Positions 6,973 through 54,733 of a stretch of 64,000 bases of DNA are shown piece by piece. Under the pieces are notes generated by a model that saw nothing but the letters and a program-made list of their open reading frames with translations, did not search any database and was not told where the DNA came from. Source of the stretch: a phage; the NCBI GenBank assembly GCA_011911785.1, contig GCA_011911785.1_4084.1; one strand, 5' to 3'. The first letter of the stretch is position 1; the number at the start of each line of letters is the position of its first letter. Made by a program: the position numbers and the translations under genes.

Positions 6973-7593
6973 ATGAGTATGATTCGTGAATGGTCTTCAT
7001 TCAATGATTCACAAATTGTTATGGAACATCGTGATAATGGGCTGGGAGGTCGCGATTGCTATCTTCGTGGTATCGCAATTCAAGCTGACCAGCGTAATTT
7101 GAACGAAAGAATTTACCCTTTAGCCGAAATTGCTAAAGCTGTTAATAATATGGCTCAACGTTTGGCTAAAGGCGAAAGCATTCTAGTAGAATGTGACCAC
7201 CCTGAAACTTTGACTATTAACCTTGACCGTGTAGCAGCAATGATTACTAAAGTCTGGATGGAAGGTTCTAATGGGATGGCAGAAATCAAATTACTTGATA
7301 CTGCACATGGTCAAAATATTCGTAAAATGCTCGAAGCAGGTGTAAAACTTGGTGTAAGTTCTCGTGGTTCCGGTAACGTTGATTATAATGGAATAGTTTC
7401 TGATTTCGAAATTATCACAATTGATATTGTTGCTCAACCTAGTGCTCCCGAAGCGTACCCAACAGCGGTATTTGAGTCTTTGATGAGTAAGTACGGCTCA
7501 CCTTGCAATGGACCTAAAAAAATCACAGAATCTAAATCAGTAAATAAACTAGATTCTGAAATTTATGATTTTTTCAAGAAATTAAAAGGTTAA
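6973..7593 (+). CDS. gp21: Prohead core protease (T4 gp21-like)
   Basis: 206 aa; position between core and scaffold genes; GVSSRGSG segment resembles the T4 gp21 region as I remember it. Confidence 0.6.
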   Translation: MSMIREWSSFNDSQIVMEHRDNGLGGRDCYLRGIAIQADQRNLNERIYPLAEIAKAVNNMAQRLAKGESILVECDHPETLTINLDRVAAMITKVWMEGSNGMAEIKLLDTAHGQNIRKMLEAGVKLGVSSRGSGNVDYNGIVSDFEIITIDIVAQPSAPEAYPTAVFESLMSKYGSPCNGPKKITESKSVNKLDSEIYDFFKKLKG

Positions 7594-7661: not shown

Positions 7662-8780
7662 ATGTCTAAATTAGAAAAGCTTCTAAAAGAATCATCTCTT
7701 TCTGATGAAGCAAAACAGCTAATTCAGGAAGCATGGAATGAAGAAAAGAACACACTAGCCGCTGAAATGCGTGAAGAAATGAAAGGCCGTTATAAACAAG
7801 ACCTAGCTGAACTAACAGAAGGTCTTAACACTATGGTTACTCAAGTTATCGCTGAAGAAATGGGTGCAGTATATGACGAGAAAAAACGTCTCGTTGAAGA
7901 CCGCGTTACCCTCCGTAAAACTCTTGGTAACTTCTCTGAATTCGCTAATTCAGTACTAGCTGAAGAAGTTAAACAAATGCGTAACGAACGTAAACTAGTT
8001 CAAGAAAGCCTCGGTAAATTCGTTAATTTCTCTAACGGTATCCTAGCTGAAGAACTAAAAGAATTCCACAGCGAAAAACGTCAACTAGTAGAAGCTCGTG
8101 TAAAACTACTTGCTGAAGGTTCTCGTCAAATTGCAGAAGCACGTAATAACTTTATCAAACGTACCTCTGAAAGTGCTGCTAAATATATTGCAGAAACCAC
8201 TCAGAAAAATCTTTACGCTTTGAAACAAGATCTTGCTGAAGCTAAACAAAATATGTTCGGTCGTAAAATCTTTGAAGCATTTGCTCAAGAATTTAATACC
8301 AAACAATTTAATGAGAATTCACTACTTCGTTCTTTGACTGAATCAATCAAATCTAAAGAAGATGAGATTGCTCAAGTTAAACAAGAACTAAATGAATCTG
8401 TTAACGCAGTTAAAGAAGTTCAATCAAAACTACGTATCATGGAAGATACACAGGCACGCAATGCGATTATGTCTGAATTGGTTAAGCCTTTGACTAGTCA
8501 ACAAAAACAAATTATGGAATCCCTTCTAGCTGCTTCTCCAACAGAAAAGCTTAAAGAAGATTTCAGCAAGTACCATAAGTCTGTACTTAACGGTACTAAA
8601 GTAAATGAATCTGCTACCACTCGTCAAGCAGTTCAACCTTCAGCGAAGAAAACAACCCTAGCAGAAGGTAAAGTAATCACTGGCAACCGTCAGGCTATTG
8701 TTGAAAGCGAAGAAATGACCGCTGACGATATGGCATTCCTAAAAGAACTCGACGTTCTTTCTGGTATCAATAAAAAATAA
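7662..8780 (+). CDS. gp22: Prohead scaffold protein (T4 gp22-like), coiled-coil
   Basis: 372 aa, Glu/Lys/Ala/Gln-rich with heptad-like pattern; immediately upstream of the major capsid gene. Confidence 0.5.
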   Translation: MSKLEKLLKESSLSDEAKQLIQEAWNEEKNTLAAEMREEMKGRYKQDLAELTEGLNTMVTQVIAEEMGAVYDEKKRLVEDRVTLRKTLGNFSEFANSVLAEEVKQMRNERKLVQESLGKFVNFSNGILAEELKEFHSEKRQLVEARVKLLAEGSRQIAEARNNFIKRTSESAAKYIAETTQKNLYALKQDLAEAKQNMFGRKIFEAFAQEFNTKQFNENSLLRSLTESIKSKEDEIAQVKQELNESVNAVKEVQSKLRIMEDTQARNAIMSELVKPLTSQQKQIMESLLAASPTEKLKEDFSKYHKSVLNGTKVNESATTRQAVQPSAKKTTLAEGKVITGNRQAIVESEEMTADDMAFLKELDVLSGINKK

Positions 8781-8872
8781 ACATTTTAAAGCATTTTAAT
8801 AATCAATTTTTTCAGTACCATAAATAATAACATACTGAAAAACGAATATAACATCTTTAAGGAGATAATATA
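8781..8872 (+). promoter_or_regulatory. Conserved promoter/leader cassette, copy B (ttttaaagc ... ttttttcagtaccataaataata ... ctttaaggag)
   Basis: Near-duplicate of 6008-6099, directly upstream of the major capsid gene. Confidence 0.5.
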
Positions 8873-10048
8873 ATGTCACAACTACTAAATGAATCCAAAT
8901 GGGTAGCAGTTAAAGAGAAACTAGTTGAAGGTCTTCAAGGTACTCGTAAATCCGTAATGGAAACCGTTCTTGATAACCATCGTAAAGTTATGCTACAAGA
9001 ATCTGCAACCGCTGGTGCAACTTCTGCTGGTAACATCGCTACTCTAAACAAAGTGATTCTACCAATTATGCGTCGTGTAATGCCAACCGTTATCGCTAAC
9101 GAAATCATCGGTGTTCAACCAATGACTGGCCCAGTTGGTCAAATCCACACTCTACGTGTTCAATACGCTGACAACGCACCAGGTGTTGTAGCTGGCGAAG
9201 AAATGCTATCTCCATTCAAGATTGCTAAATCTTACACTGGTGAGCTAAACTCTGACAACAGCAACCCACAAGCTGCTCCTACTAGCCAACTAGAAGGTAC
9301 TATGGGTCGTCGCGTTAACATCCGTATCCTACGTGAAACTGTTGAAGCGAAATCTCGTCGTCTATCTGCACGTTGGACTGTTGAATCTGCACAAGATGCA
9401 CAATCTCAACATGGTATCGACGTTGAAGCTGAACTAATGGCTGCTATCGCACAAGAAGTTACCGTTGAAATCGACCAAGAACTACTAAGCCGTCTACGTG
9501 CTCTACCAGGTGCTGCTGCTGTAACTTATGACCAATCTAAAGTAACTGGCGTTGCTACTTTCGTTGGTGATGAGCACGCTGCTCTAGCTACCCTAATCAA
9601 CCGTCAAGCGAACGAAGTTGCTCGTCGTACCAAACGTGGTGCTGCGAACTGGGCTGTTGTTTCCCCAACCGCTCTAACTATTCTACAATCTGCAACTACT
9701 TCTAGCTTTGCACGTACTACTGAAGGTACTTTTGAAGCACCAACTAACGTTAAATTCGTTGGTACTCTAAACAGCACCATGCGTATCTTTGTTGATACCT
9801 ACGCAAGTGACGTAGAAGATATTCTAATTGGTTATAAAGGTAATGCAGAAACTGATGCTGGTGTATTCTATTGCCCATACATCCCACTAATGGCATCTGG
9901 TACTGTTATGGACCCTAACACTGGAGAACTCGTTACAACTTTCTTAACCAGATACGGGTATGTTCAGTTGACCGATAGCACCAGTTCACTAGGTAACGCT
10001 GCGGACTACTACAGCAAAATCGCTATCAAAAACGTTACTTTCATGTAA
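8873..10048 (+). CDS. gp23: Major capsid protein (T4 gp23-like)
   Basis: IMRRVMPTVIANEIIGVQPM, QIHTLRVQYA, VEAKSRRLSA and IGYKGNAETDAGVFYCPYIPL parallel remembered T4 gp23 motifs (MVRRAIPNLIAFDICGVQPM, IEAKSRQLKA, VGYKGPNEMDAGIYYAPYVAL). Confidence 0.85.
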   Translation: MSQLLNESKWVAVKEKLVEGLQGTRKSVMETVLDNHRKVMLQESATAGATSAGNIATLNKVILPIMRRVMPTVIANEIIGVQPMTGPVGQIHTLRVQYADNAPGVVAGEEMLSPFKIAKSYTGELNSDNSNPQAAPTSQLEGTMGRRVNIRILRETVEAKSRRLSARWTVESAQDAQSQHGIDVEAELMAAIAQEVTVEIDQELLSRLRALPGAAAVTYDQSKVTGVATFVGDEHAALATLINRQANEVARRTKRGAANWAVVSPTALTILQSATTSSFARTTEGTFEAPTNVKFVGTLNSTMRIFVDTYASDVEDILIGYKGNAETDAGVFYCPYIPLMASGTVMDPNTGELVTTFLTRYGYVQLTDSTSSLGNAADYYSKIAIKNVTFM

Positions 10049-10070
10049 TAATAAAGAATTTAAATATACT

Positions 10071-10101
10071 AGGGACTCTTCGGAGTCCCTTTTCTTTTTT
10101 T
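10071..10101 (+). terminator. Intrinsic terminator after the major capsid gene
   Basis: Hairpin agggactcttcggagtccct followed by tttctttttt. Confidence 0.7.
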
Positions 10102-10113
10102 CAGAAAAAAAGC

Positions 10114-10142
10114 TTGACAAGTAGATTTTAATTATATATAAT
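10114..10142 (+). promoter_or_regulatory. Sigma70-type promoter TTGACA-N17-TATAAT
   Basis: TTGACA at 10114-10119, 17-nt spacer, TATAAT at 10137-10142, about 36 nt upstream of the CDS at 10178. Confidence 0.65.
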
Positions 10143-10177
10143 TACCACATACCAAAAATCACAAAGAGACAAATAAA

Positions 10178-11284
10178 ATGCCAAAAGTAAGTATCGACAA
10201 AGAAAAATTCATTGAAGAGATGAACAACAAGTATGGAGCATATGGTGAATTTGATTTCAGCACTTTAGTATTCAAAGCCAGTAAGACAACAGTTAAATGT
10301 AATAAATGCGGAAAAGAAAATACTAAACCTGCACTACGTCACATTTCATGTACATGTTCTTCATGTTATTCAAACATGTCACAGCGTTCGAACAACGAAA
10401 AATTTATCAGCACGGTAGAAACTAAATTTGGAAAAGATAAATTCAAATTTGATAAACTAAATTACATTAACGCTATAACAAAAGTAACAATACTCTGTAC
10501 AGACGAAGAACATAACGATTACTTTGAAATTACACCAAACAAATTTCTTACTGGTAAGGGATGTCCTATATGTAATAAAAATGAAGCATACAGTACTGAA
10601 GAATTCGTAGAAAAAGTAAAAGAAAATTATGGTGATTCATTAGATTTAACTAACACAGTATATGTAAATCAAAAAACTAAAGTAACTGTGTATTGTAAAG
10701 CGGGTAACCATGAATGGACAGTTGATCCGAAAACTTTACTTGTTGGTAAGACTGGTTGTGGTACATGCTCCGGTAAAGGTGGTCGCAGTACTGAACGTTT
10801 CATTGAACTGGTATCACCTATCCATAACCATAAGTATGATTATAGTTTGGTTGAATATACTATAAGCGAGAATTATGTTGATATTGTATGTCCAACTCAT
10901 GGTGTTTTCTCCCAACAACCAAAAGCACATATGGCTGGTAAAGGATGCCCATCATGTGGTGAATATGGATATCAGCCATCAAAACCTGGATATTTCTATG
11001 TTCAAAAACTAACTAATAAAGATAAGACAGTGTACAAGTATGGAATCACTGGCGATATGAAACGCCGTGTAAATGAGCAAAGTCGTCATTCTGATTTTGA
11101 ACACACTGTACTCGTTGAACGTTACTTTGAAGATGGTCATAAACCATTAGTACTGGAAAAGTTTTTGAAACAATACATTGATAGTGGTGTAGTAACTACT
11201 GAAGAGTTGCCATCAGGATTCACAGAAACTTTTGATGCTAAGTATCTTGAAACAGTACTGGAGATTGTAAATACATTTGAATAA
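10178..11284 (+). CDS. GIY-YIG/T5orf172-like protein with N-terminal tandem Cys-rich zinc-ribbon-like repeats
   Basis: Four repeats of roughly TKVTxxC...H...GKGCPxC; C-terminal GYFYVQKL...TVYKYGITGDMKRRVNEQ resembles a GIY-YIG/T5orf172 core. Confidence 0.6.
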   Translation: MPKVSIDKEKFIEEMNNKYGAYGEFDFSTLVFKASKTTVKCNKCGKENTKPALRHISCTCSSCYSNMSQRSNNEKFISTVETKFGKDKFKFDKLNYINAITKVTILCTDEEHNDYFEITPNKFLTGKGCPICNKNEAYSTEEFVEKVKENYGDSLDLTNTVYVNQKTKVTVYCKAGNHEWTVDPKTLLVGKTGCGTCSGKGGRSTERFIELVSPIHNHKYDYSLVEYTISENYVDIVCPTHGVFSQQPKAHMAGKGCPSCGEYGYQPSKPGYFYVQKLTNKDKTVYKYGITGDMKRRVNEQSRHSDFEHTVLVERYFEDGHKPLVLEKFLKQYIDSGVVTTEELPSGFTETFDAKYLETVLEIVNTFE

Positions 11285-11308
11285 ACACTAAGCAGGGAAG
11301 CTTTCACT

Positions 11309-11659
11309 ATGTTAACTGTATACATTTTTAAAAAAGAAGAGTACTTAAAGAGTCAGTACTCAAAAATTGAGATCAATGTTCCTTATGGAACGTTGGTGGG
11401 TTATGATGAGGCTACGGAGACGTTGTATTACAATGATGATCGTCTGGATTACAGTACTGATCATTTTATAGAAGATATATTGAGTACTGAATCAGAAGAC
11501 ATGTTGTATGAAGAATATATTGACAAATACAAAGAACGCATGTCGAAGTTACATGCTGATGCTCCAGTACTGAACACTCCTAAAACCCCATCCGAGTTTG
11601 ATCCTCAAAATCCATTTCAACGCCTGATAGATGCGGGTGTAAACTTCAGAATTAGTTAA
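11309..11659 (+). CDS. Hypothetical protein
   Basis: 116-aa ORF, no recognisable motif. Confidence 0.4.
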   Translation: MLTVYIFKKEEYLKSQYSKIEINVPYGTLVGYDEATETLYYNDDRLDYSTDHFIEDILSTESEDMLYEEYIDKYKERMSKLHADAPVLNTPKTPSEFDPQNPFQRLIDAGVNFRIS

Positions 11660-11689
11660 TAATAAATATCTCCATACTAGGAGATATCT

Positions 11690-11998
11690 ATGTCACAAAT
11701 ATGTTATGTAATCACTAATAGTGCATGGCCTGAATATGTAAAGATAGGCTTCACTACAAAATCAGAGATGAAAGAGCGTTTAGGTGTTTATCAGACAGCT
11801 TCACCATTCAGGGATTTTGAGGTATACCATCAGGTTATGTTTGACGATGCACGAACAGCAGAAAAGGAAGTGCATAAGAGATTAAAGCAAATGAATGCAA
11901 CAAGGCAACCTAACTCTGAATGGTTCAAGATGCCTAAAAAGTTAGCTGCAAATATTATTGATTCCGTATTGGATGATATGGAAAATGATTTACTATAG
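11690..11998 (+). CDS. Small T5orf172/GIY-YIG-like protein
   Basis: ICYVITNSAWPEYVKIGFTT ... ERL ... NSEWFKMP pattern typical of the T5orf172 family; RBS aggag upstream. Confidence 0.55.
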   Translation: MSQICYVITNSAWPEYVKIGFTTKSEMKERLGVYQTASPFRDFEVYHQVMFDDARTAEKEVHKRLKQMNATRQPNSEWFKMPKKLAANIIDSVLDDMENDLL

Positions 11999-12038
11999 AT
12001 ATAAATATGATATATATTAAACAAAAAAGGATTTTTAC

Positions 12039-13649
12039 ATGAGCATAAGTTTTAATCATCCACAGAATACTGTAACCAGTACTGCGGAAAATGGTTCATT
12101 GAATCTAATAGTACTAGGTGGTACACCAACTAATCCTCGACCAATTAGAATGAATTCTTCATCGGTAATACTACCTGTTCAGGATTTGCCTGTTGGTGAA
12201 GCAGGGGCGATAGTATTTGACAAAAACACTCTTACTTTGAAGTATCATGATGGTACTAACTGGATTGAAATGTTAAGTGCTGCCGATGTAGTTGCACCAA
12301 TTGAACAACAGATTCAGGATATCAATTCTATACTGGGAACTAAGGTTGATAGAGTAACCTATTCAATGTCATCAATTCCAACTGCTTCTATTAGCGGAAC
12401 TACATTGAATATTATATTCCCAACACCTTCATCAATTCAAGGTGCTAATGGTTTGTACACGAGTGCTAAACCTGGATGTATTATGCATTATAGCTTGACA
12501 TCTGGACAAACAGTTGATAGTATACGTGAACAAATGTCGGGTAGTACTGGTGGACAGAATGGAAGAGAAGGTACACAGGCAAAACCGTGGAAAACATCAG
12601 ATGGTTGGTGTTTTGCTGATGGTATGTGGTGGGAATGGGAAGGAACTAATGGTCCAATAAAGAAACAAGTACCAAACTTGAACCGTGATGGATATTTAAG
12701 AAGTATCACAACCAGTGGTATAACCAAAACTGACGCAATGATAGCAGGTGGTGGTTCATTGACACCGAGTACTTTCACTATTCCAGACCACATTCATGGG
12801 ACTGGTAAAATGTTAGGTACTAACGGTAGTGATGCGGATGATGCTGTTTTCATTAGTGGTAGAGCATGGAATGATGGTAGAGGCTATCGTGGTCCTGCAA
12901 TCTTTGGTGATAAGAATGCCCGTATGGAGTTTAGTGTAGATGGTAACAATGCAGCAACTGCATTATCAACTTCACAACCAATTTATGATGATGCGAATGC
13001 ACGCACAATAACCCATAACCATACAGTAACAGGTATTGACGTACCACACTTTAACACTGCAATTTTGTATAACATTTCCGAACCATCAGTTGCGATGAGC
13101 GAAAATACTGCAAATGATCGTTTTGTTCGTAAAACTGGTGATACAATGTCTGGTGAATTATACATTGCTAACCGTGCTGGTATTCGTGGTGGTGGTGATT
13201 TGTACTTATTCTTCCAGAACGCTAGTGGTGGTGAACGTGCCGCAGTATACTTCCAAGGTAATGAACTAAGACTTCGTGCTGGTGGTGGTGCTGTAACAGT
13301 TAACAGTGGTGGTTCTTTGTATATTCCAGGTTCATTAACAGTTAATGCCAATTCCGCATCTGTTGGTGGCAAACCTATTGTGAGAACAGTTAATGGTGCA
13401 TGGGCAGATGGTAATGGTAATGTAACAATCACTACTGGTTCAGTACAAGATGCCCGCTATATTGAGCAAAAATTATTTGATCCAGGCCACAACGAAATAT
13501 CTTGGACTTTTATCTGTCCATCTGGTGCAATGTTGAGTGGTATAATTGTACAAGAAACTGGAAGAAACTCTGCTGATAACATTGGTGGTGTATACTATAA
13601 ATATTTGCAAATTTTAGTTAATGGTTCATGGAAAACTATTGATGGGTGA
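12039..13649 (+). CDS. Putative fibre/adhesin-like or capsid decoration structural protein
   Basis: 536 aa, Gly/Thr/Ser/Asn-rich, beta-rich character; C-terminal region resembles fibre-tip proteins only in composition. Confidence 0.4.
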   Translation: MSISFNHPQNTVTSTAENGSLNLIVLGGTPTNPRPIRMNSSSVILPVQDLPVGEAGAIVFDKNTLTLKYHDGTNWIEMLSAADVVAPIEQQIQDINSILGTKVDRVTYSMSSIPTASISGTTLNIIFPTPSSIQGANGLYTSAKPGCIMHYSLTSGQTVDSIREQMSGSTGGQNGREGTQAKPWKTSDGWCFADGMWWEWEGTNGPIKKQVPNLNRDGYLRSITTSGITKTDAMIAGGGSLTPSTFTIPDHIHGTGKMLGTNGSDADDAVFISGRAWNDGRGYRGPAIFGDKNARMEFSVDGNNAATALSTSQPIYDDANARTITHNHTVTGIDVPHFNTAILYNISEPSVAMSENTANDRFVRKTGDTMSGELYIANRAGIRGGGDLYLFFQNASGGERAAVYFQGNELRLRAGGGAVTVNSGGSLYIPGSLTVNANSASVGGKPIVRTVNGAWADGNGNVTITTGSVQDARYIEQKLFDPGHNEISWTFICPSGAMLSGIIVQETGRNSADNIGGVYYKYLQILVNGSWKTIDG

Positions 13650-13652
13650 TAT

Positions 13653-14108
13653 ATGATAACTTTAAAAAACTTTAAAAAATATGAAGGTAATGAACCTGAA
13701 TTGAAAGGAATGAATATCGCATATTATATTTCTGAGTGTGGAATGGATTGGTATGATTCACATAAATTATTTTCAGAAGATACATTAAAAATAACAGTAG
13801 ATAAAAATGGTATGGTAACTAGTGCATCGTATGATGTTACTATGCTCTGTCCATTAGATGATAGTGTATATGAAATTGAATATACAGGGGATAAATCTGA
13901 ACTAGTTGGTAAAATTTACAACGAAGTTAACGGAACTTTCTCCGAAAGACCTCCACGCCAACTATCTGCACAACAAGTATTCAATCTTTTGAGTGAACGC
14001 AAAAAAGTACTGGACATGAAGAAAGAATTCGATATGTTGAGTACTGAAGAAGCTGCTGAGTACGAGAAGCTAATCTCTGATCTTAAAGAAGTTTTAAACC
14101 TTCTTTAA
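13653..14108 (+). CDS. Hypothetical protein (possible fibre assembly chaperone by position)
   Basis: 151-aa ORF immediately after the fibre-like gene; no motif support. Confidence 0.35.
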   Translation: MITLKNFKKYEGNEPELKGMNIAYYISECGMDWYDSHKLFSEDTLKITVDKNGMVTSASYDVTMLCPLDDSVYEIEYTGDKSELVGKIYNEVNGTFSERPPRQLSAQQVFNLLSERKKVLDMKKEFDMLSTEEAAEYEKLISDLKEVLNLL

Positions 14109-14143
14109 AAATTTGGGACACATTGAGAAGTACTGATATAATA

Positions 14144-14186
14144 GAGACATTCCACGAGGAACATTGTGGAGTGTCTATTTTTTTTC
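14144..14186 (+). terminator. Intrinsic terminator
   Basis: Imperfect hairpin agacattccac...gtggagtgtct followed by atttttttt. Confidence 0.55.
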
Positions 14187-14208
14187 ATTAACACATGGAG
14201 ATACAACA

Positions 14209-14511
14209 ATGGCTAAGTCTAAAAAAGAAGCAAAAGTAGAAATTCGTGACCTAAACGACGAACAACGTAAACGTCTAAGTGATGGTCTAAACAATGCAGT
14301 GGTACAGCTAACCTTTATTGATGATACCAAAGCTTCCTATACTGATTTCATCAACTCTCTTTCTGATGAGCTAGGTATTGATGCATCCGATATCAAACAA
14401 GCTGCACAACGCATTTACAAAGGCGATTACTTTGATAAGCAAAACAAACTAGACAACATCGAAACTATCCTAAGCGTAACTAATAATCTACCACAAGCTG
14501 ATGATTATTAA
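14209..14511 (+). CDS. Small acidic hypothetical protein
   Basis: ATG at 14209 with ggag at 14197-14200; capsid-like codon usage; flanked by terminators. Confidence 0.5.
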   Translation: MAKSKKEAKVEIRDLNDEQRKRLSDGLNNAVVQLTFIDDTKASYTDFINSLSDELGIDASDIKQAAQRIYKGDYFDKQNKLDNIETILSVTNNLPQADDY

Positions 14512-14537
14512 TCAGTACTGAATACTTAAAAATTTAT

Positions 14538-14567
14538 GAGCCTCCAATGTTGGGGGCTTTTATTTTA
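14538..14567 (+). terminator. Intrinsic terminator
   Basis: Hairpin agcctccaatgttgggggct (one G-U pair) followed by tttattttt. Confidence 0.55.
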
Positions 14568-14596
14568 ACTTAATACAATGTAAAGGAATACAATAG

Positions 14597-17500
14597 ATGT
14601 ATATCGATGCTTATATGGAACGTAAACGTACTGGTGATATTCTTCATGTAGTTGAACGTAAAAACGGGAAGCGTATTCTCCGTGAACTGGAGCCAGTATT
14701 TGAGTATTATGTAGAATCACCATTAGGTACACACAAAACTGTATATGGTACAATGGCACAACATCTTGAGTTTTCTTCACAGGCTCAAATGAATAAAAGC
14801 GTAGAGCAGCACAAAAGTGAAGGTCTACGAATTTTTGAAAGTGATTGTAACATTACGTTTAAAACGTTAGCGAAAGAGTACATGGGTAAGGGTTCTCCTG
14901 ACCTTAACATTGCATTCTTCGATATCGAAACAGACTTCCATAAGAAGTTTGGGTATGCACCACCATCAGACCCGTTCAACCGTGTAACTGCAATTTCTTT
15001 GTATCAATCATGGACTGGTAAGGATTATGTTTTAACACTTCCTCCAGTTGACATGGAAATTTACGAAGCACAAGACATTGTTCGACGTTTGAACGAAGAG
15101 ACAAATGATCCTAACAGTACTGTCATCCTTTATACGGATGAAAAAGAAATGTTTATGGAATTCTTTAGTCTTATTGATGATTCTGATGTATTATCAGGGT
15201 GGAATAGTGAGTTCTTTGATATTCCATACATGATTAACCGCACAAAGAAAATCTTCAATGAAGCAACCACTGCTCGTTGGTGCTTGTGGAATAAGAAACC
15301 TAGTGCTCGTGAAGCAGATAACTTTGGTAAAACTGTAGTAACCTATGATTTAGTTGGTCGTGTTCACTTAGATTATCTTGCTCTTTATAAGAAACATGCT
15401 GGTCAAGTTGAACAATCATATAAACTAGATTACATTGCAGAGAAAGTAACTAAAGAGAATAAAGTATCTTATGAAGGTTCTTTGGATAAACTATATCGTG
15501 AAGATTACATTACCTTCTTGCGTTATTCTAAGCAGGATAGTATTCTTCTGAAGAAAATTGATGCTGTATGTGACTTTATCAACCTACACAACCGTCTTGC
15601 TCATAAAGAGTGTGTACTAATTAGTACTACAATGGGTTCGGTAGCTCTGATTGATACTGCAATTATTAACCTTGCACATAGTCGTGGTGAAGTGGTATTC
15701 AACAAAGCACCTAAAGATGATTTTGAAGTTGATTATGAAACAGAATCATATGAAGATGAAGATGATGAAGCAGATGAGAAAATTAGTGCTAAAGCTGCTG
15801 GTGCATGGGTACAAGATCCAGTACTGGGATTAGTGAGTGATTTGGGATGTACTGACTTTAACTCACTGTATCCAACTGTACTTCGTACATTAGGTATGAG
15901 TACTGAATGCATTCTTGGGCAACTTCGTCAGGATTACACTGATGCGTATCTTGCTGCTAAAATTCAAGAGCAAAAGGCCAAATCCAAATCGAAATCATTC
16001 GAACCAGACTGGACTGCTGCATGGCATGGTTTGTTTGCTGCTGTTGAGTTTACAATGGTTCATGAGAAATCAGATCAAACAATCATTGTTGATTTGGAAG
16101 ATGGAAGTTCTTTCCAGGCGACAGGTAAAGAGTTGTATGATATAATCTTTGCTGAGGACAGTACTATTGTTCTAAGTGCTAACGGAACACTATTTGACAA
16201 GTCTAAGTATGGTGTAATTCCAGACATTCTAACTCAATGGTATTCTGAACGTAAAGCACAACAAAAGATGGTAATTGATTACAAACACATGTATAGTGAT
16301 GGTTGGGAATTTAATGGTCATGAGAAAGTTGAACCACTTCTATCCAACTATACTCCTGGTACAATGTTCCGCACCAACTTACATGAAAATGATCCTGTTT
16401 ATCTATTGCGTATTGCAATTGGTAAAGGTCAATGGGAAGATGTAGCTAAACTAATTGTTGAAAATGGTTTAGAACTAAAAGACGGAAGAATTTTCTGTTC
16501 TAAAGAAGATAAAGCATATTTCAAACAACAAAGTGCATTCTGGAAACAGAACCAGCAAATTCGTAAGATTCTTCTAAACAGTCTATATGGTGCACTATTG
16601 AACAAAGGTTCACGTTTCTTTGATAAGCGTTTGGGTCAGTCTGTTACCTTAACTGGTCGTTCTATGACTAAACACATGGCGAGCCGTATCAATGAAATTA
16701 CAACTGGTGTTTACAATCACCAGGGTGGTTCTGTAATTTATGGTGATACTGACTCCGTATACTTCAGTGTAACCCATTACTTGAAAGAACAAGGTATTCC
16801 GTACAATCTATCTAAAGAAGAAATTGTTGATATGTACATTAAAATTGGTGATGAAGTTGGTGAGTCCTTCCCATCTTTTATGCATCAGATGTTCAACACT
16901 GGAATTGAGAAAGGTAAGATTGTAGGTGCTGACCTTGAGATGGTAGGTTCTCGTGGATTGTTCCTGAAGAAGAAACGTTATGCAATTCTGAAGTACTGGG
17001 AAGATGGATTCCGTAAAGATGTTGATGGTAAGCCTGGTGAAATCAAGGCAATGGGTCTTGAGATTAAACGTTCAGATACACCAAAATACATCCAGAACTT
17101 CCTAGAAGAGACTCTAATCGCTCTACTGGTAGGGGAGTCAGAGGCTGAACTAAAACAGCGTGTACGTGACTTTAAAGCGGTATTTAAAGACATTCCTGTA
17201 CACGAGAAAGGTTCTCCGCGTACCGTTAAGAACTACACTAATCTGGAAGCTGAATATAACACTACTGGTAAGTGTAAAGTTGGACACGTATTGGCAGGTA
17301 TTCAATGGAACCGTCTACGTGAAGTGTATGATGACAAGTCAGTACCAGAAGTTACTGATGGTACAAAAGTTATCGTGTGTAATCTAAAAGATAACCCAAT
17401 GGGAATTAAAGCTGTAGGATATCCAATTGACTGTGTAGAGTATCTACCTGAATGGTTCTTAGAATTACCGTTTGATAGTGAGAAAATGGAAGAGATAGTT

Positions 17501-20216: not shown

Positions 20217-20909
20217 TTAAACCATTGCTGGGATAGATTTGAACATCTTGATACCGAAATCACCAGCAGCATCAGCAGCTTGGGATTTTAGGAAGACTTC
20301 AGTAACGCCATCTTTTGCAAGCATTGGGATACCAGTTAGATCGTCGATAAGTAGGCGACCTTCTTCGATTTCAGTACTTGGAACGCCTTGGAAAGATACT
20401 AGGTCTTTGTCAAATACGTTCGCACGCTCAACTAGGAAAGTAACAACAGAAGCACTTGCAATATCAACAGTACCAACACTTAGTACACCATCAACTGCGT
20501 TAGTGAAACCTTCAACTGCTAGTGGAGCGGAAGCATCATTACCACCGATTTCAGAAGTACTTAGAACAACTGCACGTTGTTGAACAACATCAACTAGACG
20601 TTTAACGTTAGTTTGAGCAGCGTAGGAAGCATTGTAATCAGCTTCAACAGTAGCAACTTCGAATGGAGTACCGTCGATACGGATGATACCTTTGTCATTT
20701 AGATATTCGGTAATAACTTCAGGAATATCAGTGTTTAGAAAACGTTGTAGACCAGCAAAAGAACCAACTGCACCAGTAACACGCACGTTAACGTCACCTA
20801 GTTTACTAACAGCGATAGAAGCTAGGGCGTTAGTACCGCAGAAATAACCTAGAATTTTGTCAAAAGAATAACCGTTAATTCGTTCAAAAGAAGTATTAAT
20901 ATTAGACAT
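20217..20909 (-). CDS. Hypothetical abundant protein, paralog B of a minus-strand pair (virion-like codon usage)
   Basis: 230 aa; shares QQRAVVL and ERANVFDKD-type segments with the 20925-21524 product; codon usage like the major capsid gene. Confidence 0.6.
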   Translation of the reverse strand: MSNINTSFERINGYSFDKILGYFCGTNALASIAVSKLGDVNVRVTGAVGSFAGLQRFLNTDIPEVITEYLNDKGIIRIDGTPFEVATVEADYNASYAAQTNVKRLVDVVQQRAVVLSTSEIGGNDASAPLAVEGFTNAVDGVLSVGTVDIASASVVTFLVERANVFDKDLVSFQGVPSTEIEEGRLLIDDLTGIPMLAKDGVTEVFLKSQAADAAGDFGIKMFKSIPAMV

Positions 20910-20924
20910 GTTAATCTCCTTATA

Positions 20925-21524
20925 TTATAGTTGAACTGGTAGAGCAGCACGAACTTTAATAGCTACAGCTTTAGCAGCTTCAGCATCACCAACACCATCA
21001 GTAGTAACATCTACGAAAGATTTAGTACGGAAGAATTTAGCTTGAGCGATTACTTTAGCTAGTTCAACAGTTGGATCAACTGGAACAGAGTAAGCAGCAC
21101 CTGGACGAACATCTTGTTTAGCGAAAACGTCTTGACGTTCGCAGATGAAGGTTAGTGCAACAGAACCAGCACCGCCAGCAACATCAGCACCAGAAGTACC
21201 GAAAGCAACTACGTTACCGCCAACAGTTTTGAAATCCGCTGGGATTACTACGTCAGTGTCAAGAGCTAGTACAGAAGTAGTAACTAGAACAGCACGTTGT
21301 TGTAGTAGTTGGGTTAGCATGAATTGGTTGTATTGTGCGTTAGTGATCGCAGTTTGTAGTGCTTCATCTTGTAGTTCAGAACCATCGGAAGTTACTTTGG
21401 TAGTACCAACTTCAACATCTGCTGGTAGATCAACAACGATAGTTACAAAACCATTATCACCACCCCAGTACTCACGGGAGTTAGCAGACATACCATAGTT
21501 ACGGTTAAAAGAATTAAGACTCAT
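20925..21524 (-). CDS. Hypothetical abundant protein, paralog A of a minus-strand pair
   Basis: 199 aa; QQRAVLVTTS and ERQDVFAKQD segments paralogous to the downstream gene. Confidence 0.6.
   Translation of the reverse strand: MSLNSFNRNYGMSANSREYWGGDNGFVTIVVDLPADVEVGTTKVTSDGSELQDEALQTAITNAQYNQFMLTQLLQQRAVLVTTSVLALDTDVVIPADFKTVGGNVVAFGTSGADVAGGAGSVALTFICERQDVFAKQDVRPGAAYSVPVDPTVELAKVIAQAKFFRTKSFVDVTTDGVGDAEAAKAVAIKVRAALPVQL

Positions 21525-49150: not shown

Positions 49151-54733
<5,583 letters not shown>

What the first reader, a model, noticed from the sequence alone, without database searches (positions are those of the whole stretch)
10050..12030. Self-contained insertion with GIY-YIG/T5orf172-like genes between the major capsid gene and the next structural gene
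The capsid gene ends with a strong terminator. It is followed at once by a perfect TTGACA-N17-TATAAT promoter driving a 368-aa protein that has four tandem Cys-rich zinc-ribbon-like repeats and a C-terminal GIY-YIG-like core, then a 116-aa unknown ORF and a 102-aa T5orf172-type protein. This layout is typical of free-standing homing endonuclease cassettes in T4-like phages, but the repeat-rich N-terminal DNA-binding module is unusual.
Basis: partly seen in the sequence, partly recalled or inferred. Interest (0 to 1): 0.6.

Follow-up and report, generated by a model that had tools for sequence, protein, structure and literature searches.

The report
Homing endonuclease gene beside capsid gene
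Only the first of the three genes, with its own promoter, is a mobile "selfish" nuclease gene of a known phage type; it sits in a hot spot right after the capsid gene of a jumbo E. coli phage and has dragged a short stretch of silent capsid-gene changes with it, while the other two genes are conserved residents.

Summary
The described features are all present. The window is a jumbo coliphage of the 121Q/PBECO4 group (Asteriusvirus), closest to phage A4.

The three genes are not one cassette. Only promoter + ORF368 (about 10100-11308) is variable. In 20 related genomes the slot between the capsid-gene terminator and ORF116 is empty or holds one of at least six nuclease genes from two superfamilies.

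Near-isogenic pairs are about 100% identical for kilobases, except for the slot and 100-250 nt of purely synonymous changes at the capsid gene 3' end. That haplotype tracks the nuclease subtype, not the backbone (permutation 1/20000). This is a natural co-conversion footprint of homing.

ORF116 and ORF102 are single-copy syntenic genes across Rak2-like genera, including those with an empty slot. ORF102 is a 102-aa T5orf172 domain with no DNA-binding domain.

The repeat-plus-T5orf172 architecture is already published as standard (Barth et al. 2023). Verdict: a new member of a known kind, with moderate interest as a ready test system for T5orf172 homing.

The parts
9773..10015 (+). 3' end of the major capsid gene: hypervariable, synonymous-only region that co-varies with the slot occupant (inferred co-conversion tract and candidate target region). 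Core tract is 9912-10015.
   Evidence: Nucleotide diversity at MCP nt 1040-1128 is 18.4% against 5.9% for the rest of the gene. No other 89-nt window reaches it. A second peak lies at nt 901-945. The protein is identical in all genomes. BF17 vs fEgEco12 shows 19 mismatches at -123..-33 from the stop after 1 mismatch in 3.1 kb.
10071..10102 (+). Intrinsic terminator of the capsid gene (stem-loop 10071-10090 plus T-run). It forms the left edge of the slot.
   Evidence: The stem is conserved in all relatives; Turkey5 and ph0011 carry a different loop or stem top that keeps the pairing.
10100..11308 (+). The actual variable insertion: promoter, RBS, ORF368 and the RBS of ORF116. Empty-site genomes have about 0-45 nt here.
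   Evidence: Alignments of occupied and empty sites.
10114..10142 (+). Sigma-70-type promoter TTGACA-N17-TATAAT belonging to the cassette.
   Evidence: The hexamers are kept while the spacers diverge in most other cassettes: A, A2, B, L023 and L025.
10178..11284 (+). ORF368: free-standing homing-endonuclease-type gene. Zinc-ribbon repeats are R1 10232-10393, R2 10394-10591, R3 10592-10786 and R4 10787-10975. The T5orf172/GIY-YIG nuclease domain is 10976-11281.
11268..11274 (+). TAAATAC motif inside the last codons of ORF368. The same motif sits 21-28 nt upstream of ORF116 in empty-site genomes. It may be a late-promoter-like element for ORF116 that is now embedded in the nuclease gene.
   Evidence: 4 occurrences in 64 kb. 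Function is inferred only.
11309..11659 (+). ORF116: conserved clade-specific gene of unknown function. It is not part of the insertion.
11690..11998 (+). ORF102: stand-alone T5orf172 nuclease domain without a DNA-binding domain. It is a conserved resident gene. An ATAAATA motif lies at 11662-11668, 22 nt upstream of the start codon.
   Evidence: Pfam T5orf172 9e-13. It is 69-74% identical in CBB, Serratia BF and XbC2, next to the ORF116 homologue. All core residues are kept: Y6, K18, G20, R30, E58, E77. dN/dS is about 0.05.
12039..13649 (+). Tail fibre gene, the next structural gene and the right-hand conserved neighbour. TATAAATA lies at 12000-12007.
   Evidence: PHROG 13229, 6e-216. Motif.

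Best explanation
**What it is.** ORF368 with its promoter (about 10100-11308) is a free-standing homing endonuclease gene of the T5orf172 branch of the GIY-YIG superfamily. It sits in a recombination hot spot between the capsid-gene terminator and a conserved two-gene block (ORF116, ORF102).

**Proposed mechanism (inferred, not shown).**
1. The gene is transcribed from its own sigma-70-type promoter.
2. The four zinc-ribbon modules, arranged like beads on a string, read a long DNA site in co-infecting relatives that lack this cassette. That site probably lies in or next to the last ~130-250 nt of the capsid gene, or in the empty intergenic site.
3. The C-terminal domain cuts there. E327 is the counterpart of I-TevI E75 and Odn E180.
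4. The break is resected and repaired from the cassette-bearing genome. This copies in the cassette plus a flanking tract.
5. The flanking tract carries synonymous capsid-gene changes that make the donor allele uncuttable.

**What is not part of it.** ORF116 and ORF102 are resident core genes of Rak2-like jumbo phages. ORF102 is a catalytically intact-looking T5orf172 domain with no DNA-binding module. Its role is unknown.
For: **Presence/absence and replacement at one slot.** Among 20 related genomes the states are: empty; A (365-368 aa); A2 (307 aa, same nuclease domain with other repeats); 362/364/383-aa subtypes at 70/63/49% identity; C (406 aa); D (332 aa); and B (532-552 aa, DUF7487 plus an MTES_1575 restriction-endonuclease-like domain).

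**Co-conversion footprint.**
- Type-A genomes from different backbones: capsid body 93.2% identical, tail 97.1%.
- Type A vs non-A on the same backbone: body 98.8%, tail 87.9%.
- Permutation test: 1 of 20000.
- All tail changes are synonymous.

**Near-isogenic pairs** show divergence confined to the slot and its immediate flanks:
- BF17 vs fEgEco12.
- 121Q vs L023: about 100% for 3.5 kb on the left, and from +700 on the right.
- Window vs L025: body 98%, ORF102 100%, tail 80%.

**Empty allele is ancestral-like.** It is as close to other genera as the gene body is, whereas the A and C alleles are further away.

**Residency of ORF116 and ORF102.**

**Literature.**
- The T5orf172 HEG class and its zinc-finger repeats are described in PMC10448857.
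- T5orf172 nuclease activity depends on the conserved Glu in Odn (PMC8263062).
- Intronless homing and co-conversion are reviewed in PMC2988022.
Against: - No cleavage, target site or biased inheritance has been shown for this protein. According to PMC10448857, homing of the T5orf172 HEGs of ICP1 had not been verified experimentally.
- ORF368 is below Pfam's cut-offs for all three domains.
- Type A2 shares the capsid-tail allele of empty genomes, so a target in the capsid tail cannot hold for every occupant.
- The 20 genomes are not independent samples.
- A perfect sigma-70 promoter differs from T4, where free-standing nuclease genes use middle or late promoters.
Confidence: 0.8

Rival explanations
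1. The whole block 10050-12030 (ORF368 + ORF116 + ORF102) is one mobile homing cassette.
For: The three genes are adjacent, on the same strand, and there is no terminator between them. Two of the three carry T5orf172-type domains. ORF102 is annotated 'homing endonuclease' in phage vB_Ec-M-J.
Against: - Empty-slot genomes keep ORF116 and ORF102.
- Both genes are single-copy and syntenic in Mimasvirus and Eneladusvirus, which lack any slot gene.
- ORF116 is present in all 71 clade records.
- In BF17 vs fEgEco12 the insertion ends at the ORF116 start, and ORF116 and ORF102 are about 99-100% identical.
Confidence: 0.03
2. ORF368 is no longer, or not only, a selfish homing element. Instead it is used by the phage as a weapon against co-infecting relatives (interference competition or marker exclusion), or as a DNA-binding regulator, as with CapR or Odn.
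For: - Strong purifying selection (dN/dS ~0.1) and no decayed copies among 20 genomes.
- Long-term occupation of one slot by diverged subtypes at 49-97% identity.
- Precedents: Odn (PMC8263062), CapR, and the PhiPA3 intron endonuclease used in competition (PMC11620839, listed; abstract only).
Against: - The presence/absence pattern and flanking conversion tracts are what homing predicts. They are not required by a pure regulator.
- The catalytic residues are invariant, which argues against a DNA-binding-only role.
- The competition role is compatible with homing rather than exclusive of it.
Confidence: 0.12
3. The hypervariable capsid 3' end and the slot polymorphism reflect an ordinary recombination or mosaic boundary, or selection on mRNA or terminator structure. 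Under this reading the nuclease plays no part.
For: - Phage genomes are mosaic.
- The tail fibre region downstream is also mosaic.
- Type A2 entered without any capsid-tail change.
Against: - The tail haplotype follows the nuclease subtype across three backbones. It differs between genomes that are otherwise 98-100% identical.
- The divergence islands are centred on the slot.
- Two unrelated nuclease superfamilies occupy the same slot.
Confidence: 0.05
4. ORF102 is itself an active free-standing homing endonuclease gene.
For: - T5orf172 at 49 bits, with all core residues kept.
- Homologues at 41% identity lie in the variable tRNA region of T5-like phages, and one is annotated 'putative homing endonuclease'.
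Against: - There is no DNA-binding module; the 102 aa are the domain alone.
- It has a fixed position and is single-copy.
- It is 69-74% identical across genera whose ORF116 is only 33-40% identical.
- dN/dS is about 0.05.
- It is present in roughly 60 of the 71 clade records.
Confidence: 0.05

Closest known systems
T5orf172-family homing endonuclease genes of vibriophage ICP1 and other phages (Barth, Dunham, Seed 2023, PMC10448857)
   Same: - C-terminal T5orf172 nuclease domain.
- N-terminal tandem zinc-finger repeats (CapR/DUF723/DUF4379), arranged like beads on a string.
- Location next to capsid or other essential genes.
- Variable presence between isolates.
- Domain shuffling: type A2 has an identical nuclease domain with different repeats.
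- tblastn links ORF368 to ICP1 'tcgB putative homing endonuclease' at 31% identity over aa 215-367.
   Different: - The host lineage is a Rak2-like jumbo coliphage, which that paper does not mention.
- Here natural near-isogenic pairs show flanking conversion tracts.
- Several subtypes compete for one slot.
T4 Seg endonucleases: SegD between genes 23 and 24; SegG and SegF with mapped co-conversion and marker exclusion (Edgell et al. 2010, PMC2988022)
   Same: - Free-standing GIY-YIG-superfamily nuclease gene between conserved genes, directly after the major capsid gene.
- Intronless-homing logic: a cut at a distance from the insertion site, co-conversion of flanks, and a resistant donor allele.
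   Different: - The nuclease subfamily differs: T5orf172 has Lys where canonical GIY-YIG has the second Tyr.
- The DNA-binding module differs: zinc ribbons instead of the Seg/I-TevI type.
- segD is antisense and lacks its own promoter, whereas ORF368 is co-oriented and has a consensus sigma-70 promoter. T4 free-standing nuclease genes use middle or late promoters.
121Q gp604 'endonuclease' and RaK2 gp440 (ORF095) 'endonuclease', the RefSeq genes in the same slot
   Same: - Same position between the capsid gene and the ORF116 homologue.
- 86% (121Q) and 33% (RaK2) amino-acid identity to ORF368.
- Phage A4 carries an identical protein annotated 'hypothetical'.
   Different: These carry database annotations only. 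No analysis of mobility for them was found in the papers searched.
Odn (ICP1 gp88), the origin-directed nuclease
   Same: T5orf172 domain with the catalytic Arg and Glu. This is the one T5orf172 protein with shown in vitro cleavage, and the E180A mutant is inactive.
   Different: Odn uses a RepA_N DNA-binding domain and is an anti-satellite weapon, not a homing element.
PADLOC candidate defence proteins PDC-S57 and PD-Lambda-1 (comparison for ORF102)
   Same: They share the T5orf172 domain: 3.6e-16 to PDC-S57, aligned at positions 5-93 of 212.
   Different: ORF102 consists of that domain alone and is a phage core gene. No defence context is present.

Membership tests
GIY-YIG superfamily / T5orf172 (PF10544): ORF368 | Match to the curated Pfam model above its gathering score | tested here: not met
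   T5orf172 scores 17.5 bits against a cut-off of 20, covering only aa 271-311. MUG113 scores 16.8 against 22.3. JNE01's slot protein does pass, at 26.2 bits.
GIY-YIG superfamily / T5orf172 (PF10544): ORF368 | GIY-YIG alpha/beta fold: beta1-beta2-alpha-beta3-alpha | tested here: met
GIY-YIG superfamily / T5orf172 (PF10544): ORF368 | Conserved catalytic residues: Tyr in beta1, Arg in the first helix, Glu in the helix after beta3 | tested here: met
   Y274, R297 and E327 (plus K287, G289 and E350) are invariant in 40 homologues at 27-97% identity.
GIY-YIG superfamily / T5orf172 (PF10544): ORF368 | Metal-dependent DNA cleavage | not testable with these tools
   Needs purified protein.
T5orf172 HEG class with zinc-finger repeats (Barth et al. 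2023) | One or more CapR/DUF723/DUF4379 zinc-finger modules N-terminal to the T5orf172 domain | tested here: met
   - Four modules, with invariant Cys and a C-x2-5-H...C-x2-C pattern.
- DUF4379 (23.9/24.5) and DUF723 (19.1/20.9) are just under their cut-offs.
- Precomputed Pfam lists PF05265 for the close homologues.
- PHROG 681 matches at 1e-76.
Free-standing homing endonuclease gene (intronless homing) | Presence/absence polymorphism at the same locus among close relatives | tested here: met
   Three empty genomes and at least six alternative occupants among 20 genomes. About 23 phage records carry a homologue at >=60% identity, against 71 records for the clade.
Free-standing homing endonuclease gene (intronless homing) | Co-conversion of flanking markers with the gene | tested here: met
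   This is inferred from natural genomes, not from a cross. The capsid-tail haplotype tracks the subtype. Divergence islands are confined to the slot flanks in three near-isogenic pairs.
Free-standing homing endonuclease gene (intronless homing) | Site-specific cleavage of the gene-less allele, and resistance of the gene-bearing allele | not testable with these tools
   The target site is unknown. Candidates are capsid nt ~1040-1128 of the empty-type allele, or the 45-nt empty intergenic site.
Free-standing homing endonuclease gene (intronless homing) | Over-representation in the progeny of mixed infections | not testable with these tools
   Needs phage crosses.
T5orf172 (PF10544): ORF102 | Match above the gathering score, and core residues present | tested here: met
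   49 bits against 20, covering model positions 2-99 of 101. Y6, K18, G20, R30, E58 and E77 are invariant in 11 orthologues and align with ORF368's core residues.
Homing endonuclease gene: ORF102 | DNA-binding module plus variable presence | tested here: not met
   The 102 aa are the domain alone. The gene is single-copy, has a fixed position, and is conserved across genera.

The most novel reading that the evidence does not exclude
The 3' end of the capsid gene of Rak2-like jumbo coliphages may be a multi-allelic battleground. At least six nuclease lineages from two superfamilies compete for a single slot, and each is locked to its own set of synonymous 'immunity' changes in an essential gene. 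Beside the slot sits ORF102, a T5orf172 nuclease domain without a DNA-binding module that appears to have been domesticated. It is conserved across most genera of the clade and preceded by a late-promoter-like motif. It may have a core function, such as DNA processing, or it may act in trans with a separate specificity factor.
Probability: 0.25. Interest if true: 0.55.

Novelty: new member of a known kind. Interest (0 to 1): 0.4.

Why it matters
T5orf172 proteins are among the most common putative homing endonucleases in phages. Even so, the key paper on them states that homing of the ICP1 T5orf172 HEGs had not been verified experimentally (PMC10448857).

This locus offers a ready natural experiment in cultivable E. 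coli phages:
- BF17 vs fEgEco12 and UB vs PBECO4 are sequenced isolates that differ almost only by the cassette and a 100-250 nt synonymous tract in the capsid gene. The pairs 121Q/L023 and window/L025 show the same pattern, but L023 and L025 are assembled contigs.
- A cross plus a cleavage assay could show homing, map the target, and test whether silent changes in an essential gene provide immunity.

The result also corrects the annotation logic. ORF102 is labelled 'homing endonuclease' or 'GIY-YIG nuclease' in several records, but it behaves as a conserved core gene.

Tried and rejected
- **Sequence search of solved structures** with ORF102 and with the ORF368 profile. Nothing significant.
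- **NCBIfam.** No hits for any of the three proteins.
- **PADLOC.** Only T5orf172-domain matches for ORF102.
- **ORF116.**
  - Only 15 homologues were found.
  - The AF2 model is weak, at pLDDT 67.6.
- **Paralogues of the three proteins inside the window.** None at E<=1.
- **Catalytic Glu of ORF102.** A first MAFFT alignment suggested it had lost this residue, with His or Asn at the aligned position. I rejected this after profile-profile alignment put E58 opposite E327.
- **Last 48 nt of the capsid gene.** I considered that it might be unusually invariant and so a shared target. Diversity there is average, so I dropped the idea.
- **Capsid tail more conserved than the nuclease gene among type-A genomes.** I considered this as a sign of extra constraint. 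It is compatible with the roughly 4-5 times slower synonymous rate of the capsid gene, so it was not pursued.
- **TATAAATA count in the window.** Not above chance.
- **Minus-strand ORF pairs at 20.2-21.5 kb and 50.8-52.0 kb.** No Pfam hits.
Full report
**1. What is there**

The window is a jumbo coliphage of the 121Q/PBECO4 group (Asteriusvirus, a Rak2-like phage). Escherichia phage A4 matches 8800-13700 at 97.2%.

Gene order is:
- prohead protease, 6973-7593
- scaffold, 7662-8780
- gp23-type major capsid protein, 8873-10048
- ORF368, 10178-11284
- ORF116, 11309-11659
- ORF102, 11690-11998
- tail fibre, 12039-13649
- tail-fibre assembly protein, 13653-14108
- DNA polymerase, from 14597

The other features are as described:
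- The capsid gene ends with a strong hairpin terminator at 10071-10090: UUCG loop, -14.1 kcal/mol, z = -3.35, followed by a T-run.
- The only perfect TTGACA-N17-TATAAT in the 64 kb lies at 10114-10142. By count alone this is not significant, with 0.19 expected.

**2. The three genes are not one unit**

The same locus was compared in 17 sequenced relatives and 3 assembled contigs. The order capsid gene, terminator, [slot], ORF116, ORF102, tail fibre is constant. Only the slot varies.

| Slot state | Length | Genomes |
|---|---|---|
| Empty | 73-118 nt between capsid stop and ORF116 | PBECO4, fEgEco12, SD-6_S16 |
| A | 365-368 aa | window, A4, BF17, 121Q, UB, WPEC3, vB_Ec-M-J, Turkey3 |
| A2 | 307 aa | G17, ECO103, WPEC5 |
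| Further A-like subtypes (70%, 63%, 49% identity) | 362, 364, 383 aa | L023, L024, L025 |
| C | 406 aa | Turkey5 (RaK2 has a similar 408-aa protein) |
| D | 332 aa | JNE01 |
| B | 532-552 aa | UE-S1, ph0011 |

- Type A2 has a nuclease domain identical to that of vB_Ec-M-J but different, fewer repeats.
- Type B is unrelated to ORF368. It carries DUF7487 and an MTES_1575 restriction-endonuclease-like domain.
- Most occupants bring their own TTGACA-N17/18-TAnnnT promoter directly after the terminator. The hexamers are kept while the spacers differ.

Pectobacterium CBB, Serratia BF and Xanthomonas XbC2 belong to other genera. They have no slot gene but keep the ORF116 and ORF102 homologues.
- ORF116 homologues occur once each in 71 phage records. 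A DNA search with the capsid-to-tail-fibre region also returned 71 records from the same host genera.
- ORF102 is 69-74% identical across these genera, whereas ORF116 is only 33-40% identical.
- RaK2 keeps ORF116 but has an unrelated 244-aa gene in place of ORF102.

So the insertion is about 10100-11308: promoter, ORF368 and the RBS of ORF116.

**3. What ORF368 is**

- *Profile hits.* It matches PHROG 681 'endonuclease' at 1e-76. Its repeat region also matches PHROG 559, 'HNH endonuclease'. Pfam DUF4379, DUF723 and T5orf172 all fall just below their cut-offs.
- *Homologues.* There are 1057 homologues at E<=1e-5. The same zinc-ribbon repeats are joined to T5orf172, HNH or Vsr-like nuclease domains in different proteins. 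In phage genomes the family occurs at 1764 places in 918 records, including ICP1 'tcgB putative homing endonuclease'.
- *Conserved residues.* In a 40-sequence alignment the Cys of repeats 2-4 are invariant. So are Y274, K287, G289, R297, E327 and E350.
- *Catalytic residue.* E327 lies in the helix after the third strand. This is the position of I-TevI E75 and Odn E180, and Odn E180A abolishes cleavage (PMC8263062).
- *Selection.* dN/dS is 0.09-0.10, so the protein is maintained.

This architecture is the published standard for T5orf172 homing endonuclease genes. In that study 200 of 229 carry CapR/DUF723/DUF4379 zinc fingers, often in tandem and often next to capsid genes (PMC10448857). The repeats are therefore not unusual.

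**4. Evidence that it moves**

The capsid protein is identical in all genomes over the last 71 codons, yet the DNA is not.

Nucleotides 1-1000 of the gene define three backbone clades. Nucleotides 1040-1176 instead cluster by slot occupant:

| Comparison | Capsid body (nt 1-1000) | Capsid tail (nt 1040-1176) |
|---|---|---|
| Type A vs type A, different backbones | 93.2% | 97.1% |
| Type A vs non-A, same backbone | 98.8% | 87.9% |

In a permutation test, 1 of 20000 random sets reached the observed tail identity.

Diversity at nt 1040-1128 is 18.4%, against 5.9% for the rest of the gene. No other 89-nt window reaches it.

Near-isogenic pairs make the point directly:
- *BF17 (A) vs fEgEco12 (empty).* One mismatch in 3.1 kb, then 19 synonymous mismatches in the last 123 nt of the capsid gene, then the insertion, then about 99-100% identity.
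- *UB (A) vs PBECO4 (empty).* Dense mismatches from -249 to -45.
- *121Q vs L023 (70%-identity subtype).* About 100% for 3.5 kb on the left and from +700 on the right. Divergence is confined to the last ~200 nt of the capsid gene and the first ~600 nt of ORF116 and ORF102.
- *Window vs L025 (49%-identity subtype).* Capsid body 98%, ORF102 100%, capsid tail 80%.

The empty-type tail allele is as close to other genera as the gene body is. The A and C alleles are further away. The empty allele therefore looks ancestral, and the occupied alleles look derived.

This is the footprint expected from double-strand-break repair with co-conversion, as in intronless homing of T4 Seg and Mob genes (PMC2988022). 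Type A2 entered without any capsid change. This fits its different DNA-binding repeats and suggests a different target.

**5. Mechanism: shown vs inferred**

*Shown here:*
- the architecture
- the fold and the conserved catalytic residues
- purifying selection
- slot polymorphism
- subtype-linked flanking tracts

*Inferred:*
- transcription from the cassette promoter
- recognition of the empty-type allele by the zinc-ribbon array
- cleavage in or near the capsid 3' end or the empty intergenic site
- repair from the donor genome
- immunity conferred by the synonymous changes

No terminator lies between ORF368 and 14145. The cassette promoter may therefore also feed ORF116, ORF102 and the tail fibre genes.

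A TAAATAC motif sits in the last codons of ORF368 (11268). The same motif lies 21-28 nt upstream of ORF116 in empty genomes. ATAAATA lies about 20-50 nt upstream of the protease, scaffold, capsid, ORF102, tail fibre and assembly genes. These look like T4-type late promoter elements, but they are untested.

**6. ORF102 and ORF116**

ORF102 is a complete T5orf172 domain, at 49 bits against a cut-off of 20. Every core residue is kept, and E58 aligns with E327. It has no DNA-binding module, and dN/dS is about 0.05. It behaves as a resident core gene, not as a homing gene. Its role is unknown.

ORF116 is clade-specific. Only a weak model was obtained, with an SH3-like barrel followed by helices.

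**7. Comparison and verdict**

ORF368 works like, and fits the tested criteria of, the T5orf172 class of free-standing homing endonuclease genes. T4 segD, between genes 23 and 24, is a positional precedent.

Identical or orthologous genes are already in GenBank: A4 gp11 'hypothetical' and 121Q gp604 'endonuclease'. The genome papers searched do not discuss them.

It is a new member of a known kind. Its value lies in the unusually clean natural evidence for homing and in the testable phage pairs. Interest: 0.4.

Noticed in passing
window 13650-14600, compared with L005 (phage A4) 7810-8511: The window is not identical to A4. MCP to ORF102 is 100% identical, but the tail fibre and assembly-protein region is only 89.5% identical. 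A4 also has about 700 extra bases after the assembly gene, carrying a 'putative tail fiber chaperone' gene that the window lacks.
   Followed up: partly
window 1741, 6945, 7606, 8820, 11662, 12001, 13597: ATAAATA, the core of the T4 late promoter TATAAATA, lies about 20-50 nt upstream of the starts of the 723-aa gene, protease, scaffold, MCP, ORF102, tail fibre and assembly protein genes. Nine of the window's 16 copies are in the first 14 kb. Upstream of the MCP gene and the 284-aa gene it is preceded by TTTTTTCAGTAC.
   Followed up: partly
L025 3105-3728: A contig with the window's backbone carries an extra 207-aa ORF of unknown function between its slot nuclease gene and ORF116. This may be a second insertion in the same hot spot.
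   Followed up: no
L009 3840-5498 (UE-S1) and L010 3891-5489 (ph0011): In these two phages the same slot holds an unrelated 532-552-aa protein with DUF7487 and an MTES_1575 restriction-endonuclease-like domain. It has its own promoter and its own capsid-tail haplotype.
   Followed up: partly
L020 2749-2822 (Salmonella phage SD-6_S16): The empty slot is only 73 nt. The ATG of ORF116 follows the terminator T-run directly, with no visible ribosome-binding site. Relative to PBECO4 this is a 45-nt deletion; it could be a real variant or an assembly error.
   Followed up: no
L011 5423-6157 (RaK2 ORF097): In Klebsiella phage RaK2 the position of ORF102 is taken by an unrelated 244-aa gene with no Pfam match, while the slot nuclease and the ORF116 homologue are kept.
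   Followed up: partly
window 9773-9817 (MCP nt 901-945): There is a second peak of synonymous diversity in the capsid gene (17.9%, 13 haplotypes in 20 genomes). It is separated from the main peak by a less variable stretch, and it coincides with the -249..-201 mismatches in UB vs PBECO4.
   Followed up: partly
window 20217-21524 and 50842-51954, minus strand: Two pairs of minus-strand ORFs (230+199 aa and 138+226 aa) interrupt the long plus-strand gene array. None has a Pfam hit.
   Followed up: no
ORF368 model, whole chain: Foldseek's only hit below E 0.001 was a Trypanosoma brucei mitoribosomal assembly-intermediate chain (6yxx_E2, prob 0.95 but TM 0.19). It may reflect a similar string of small zinc-ribbon-like modules, or it may be noise.
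   Followed up: no
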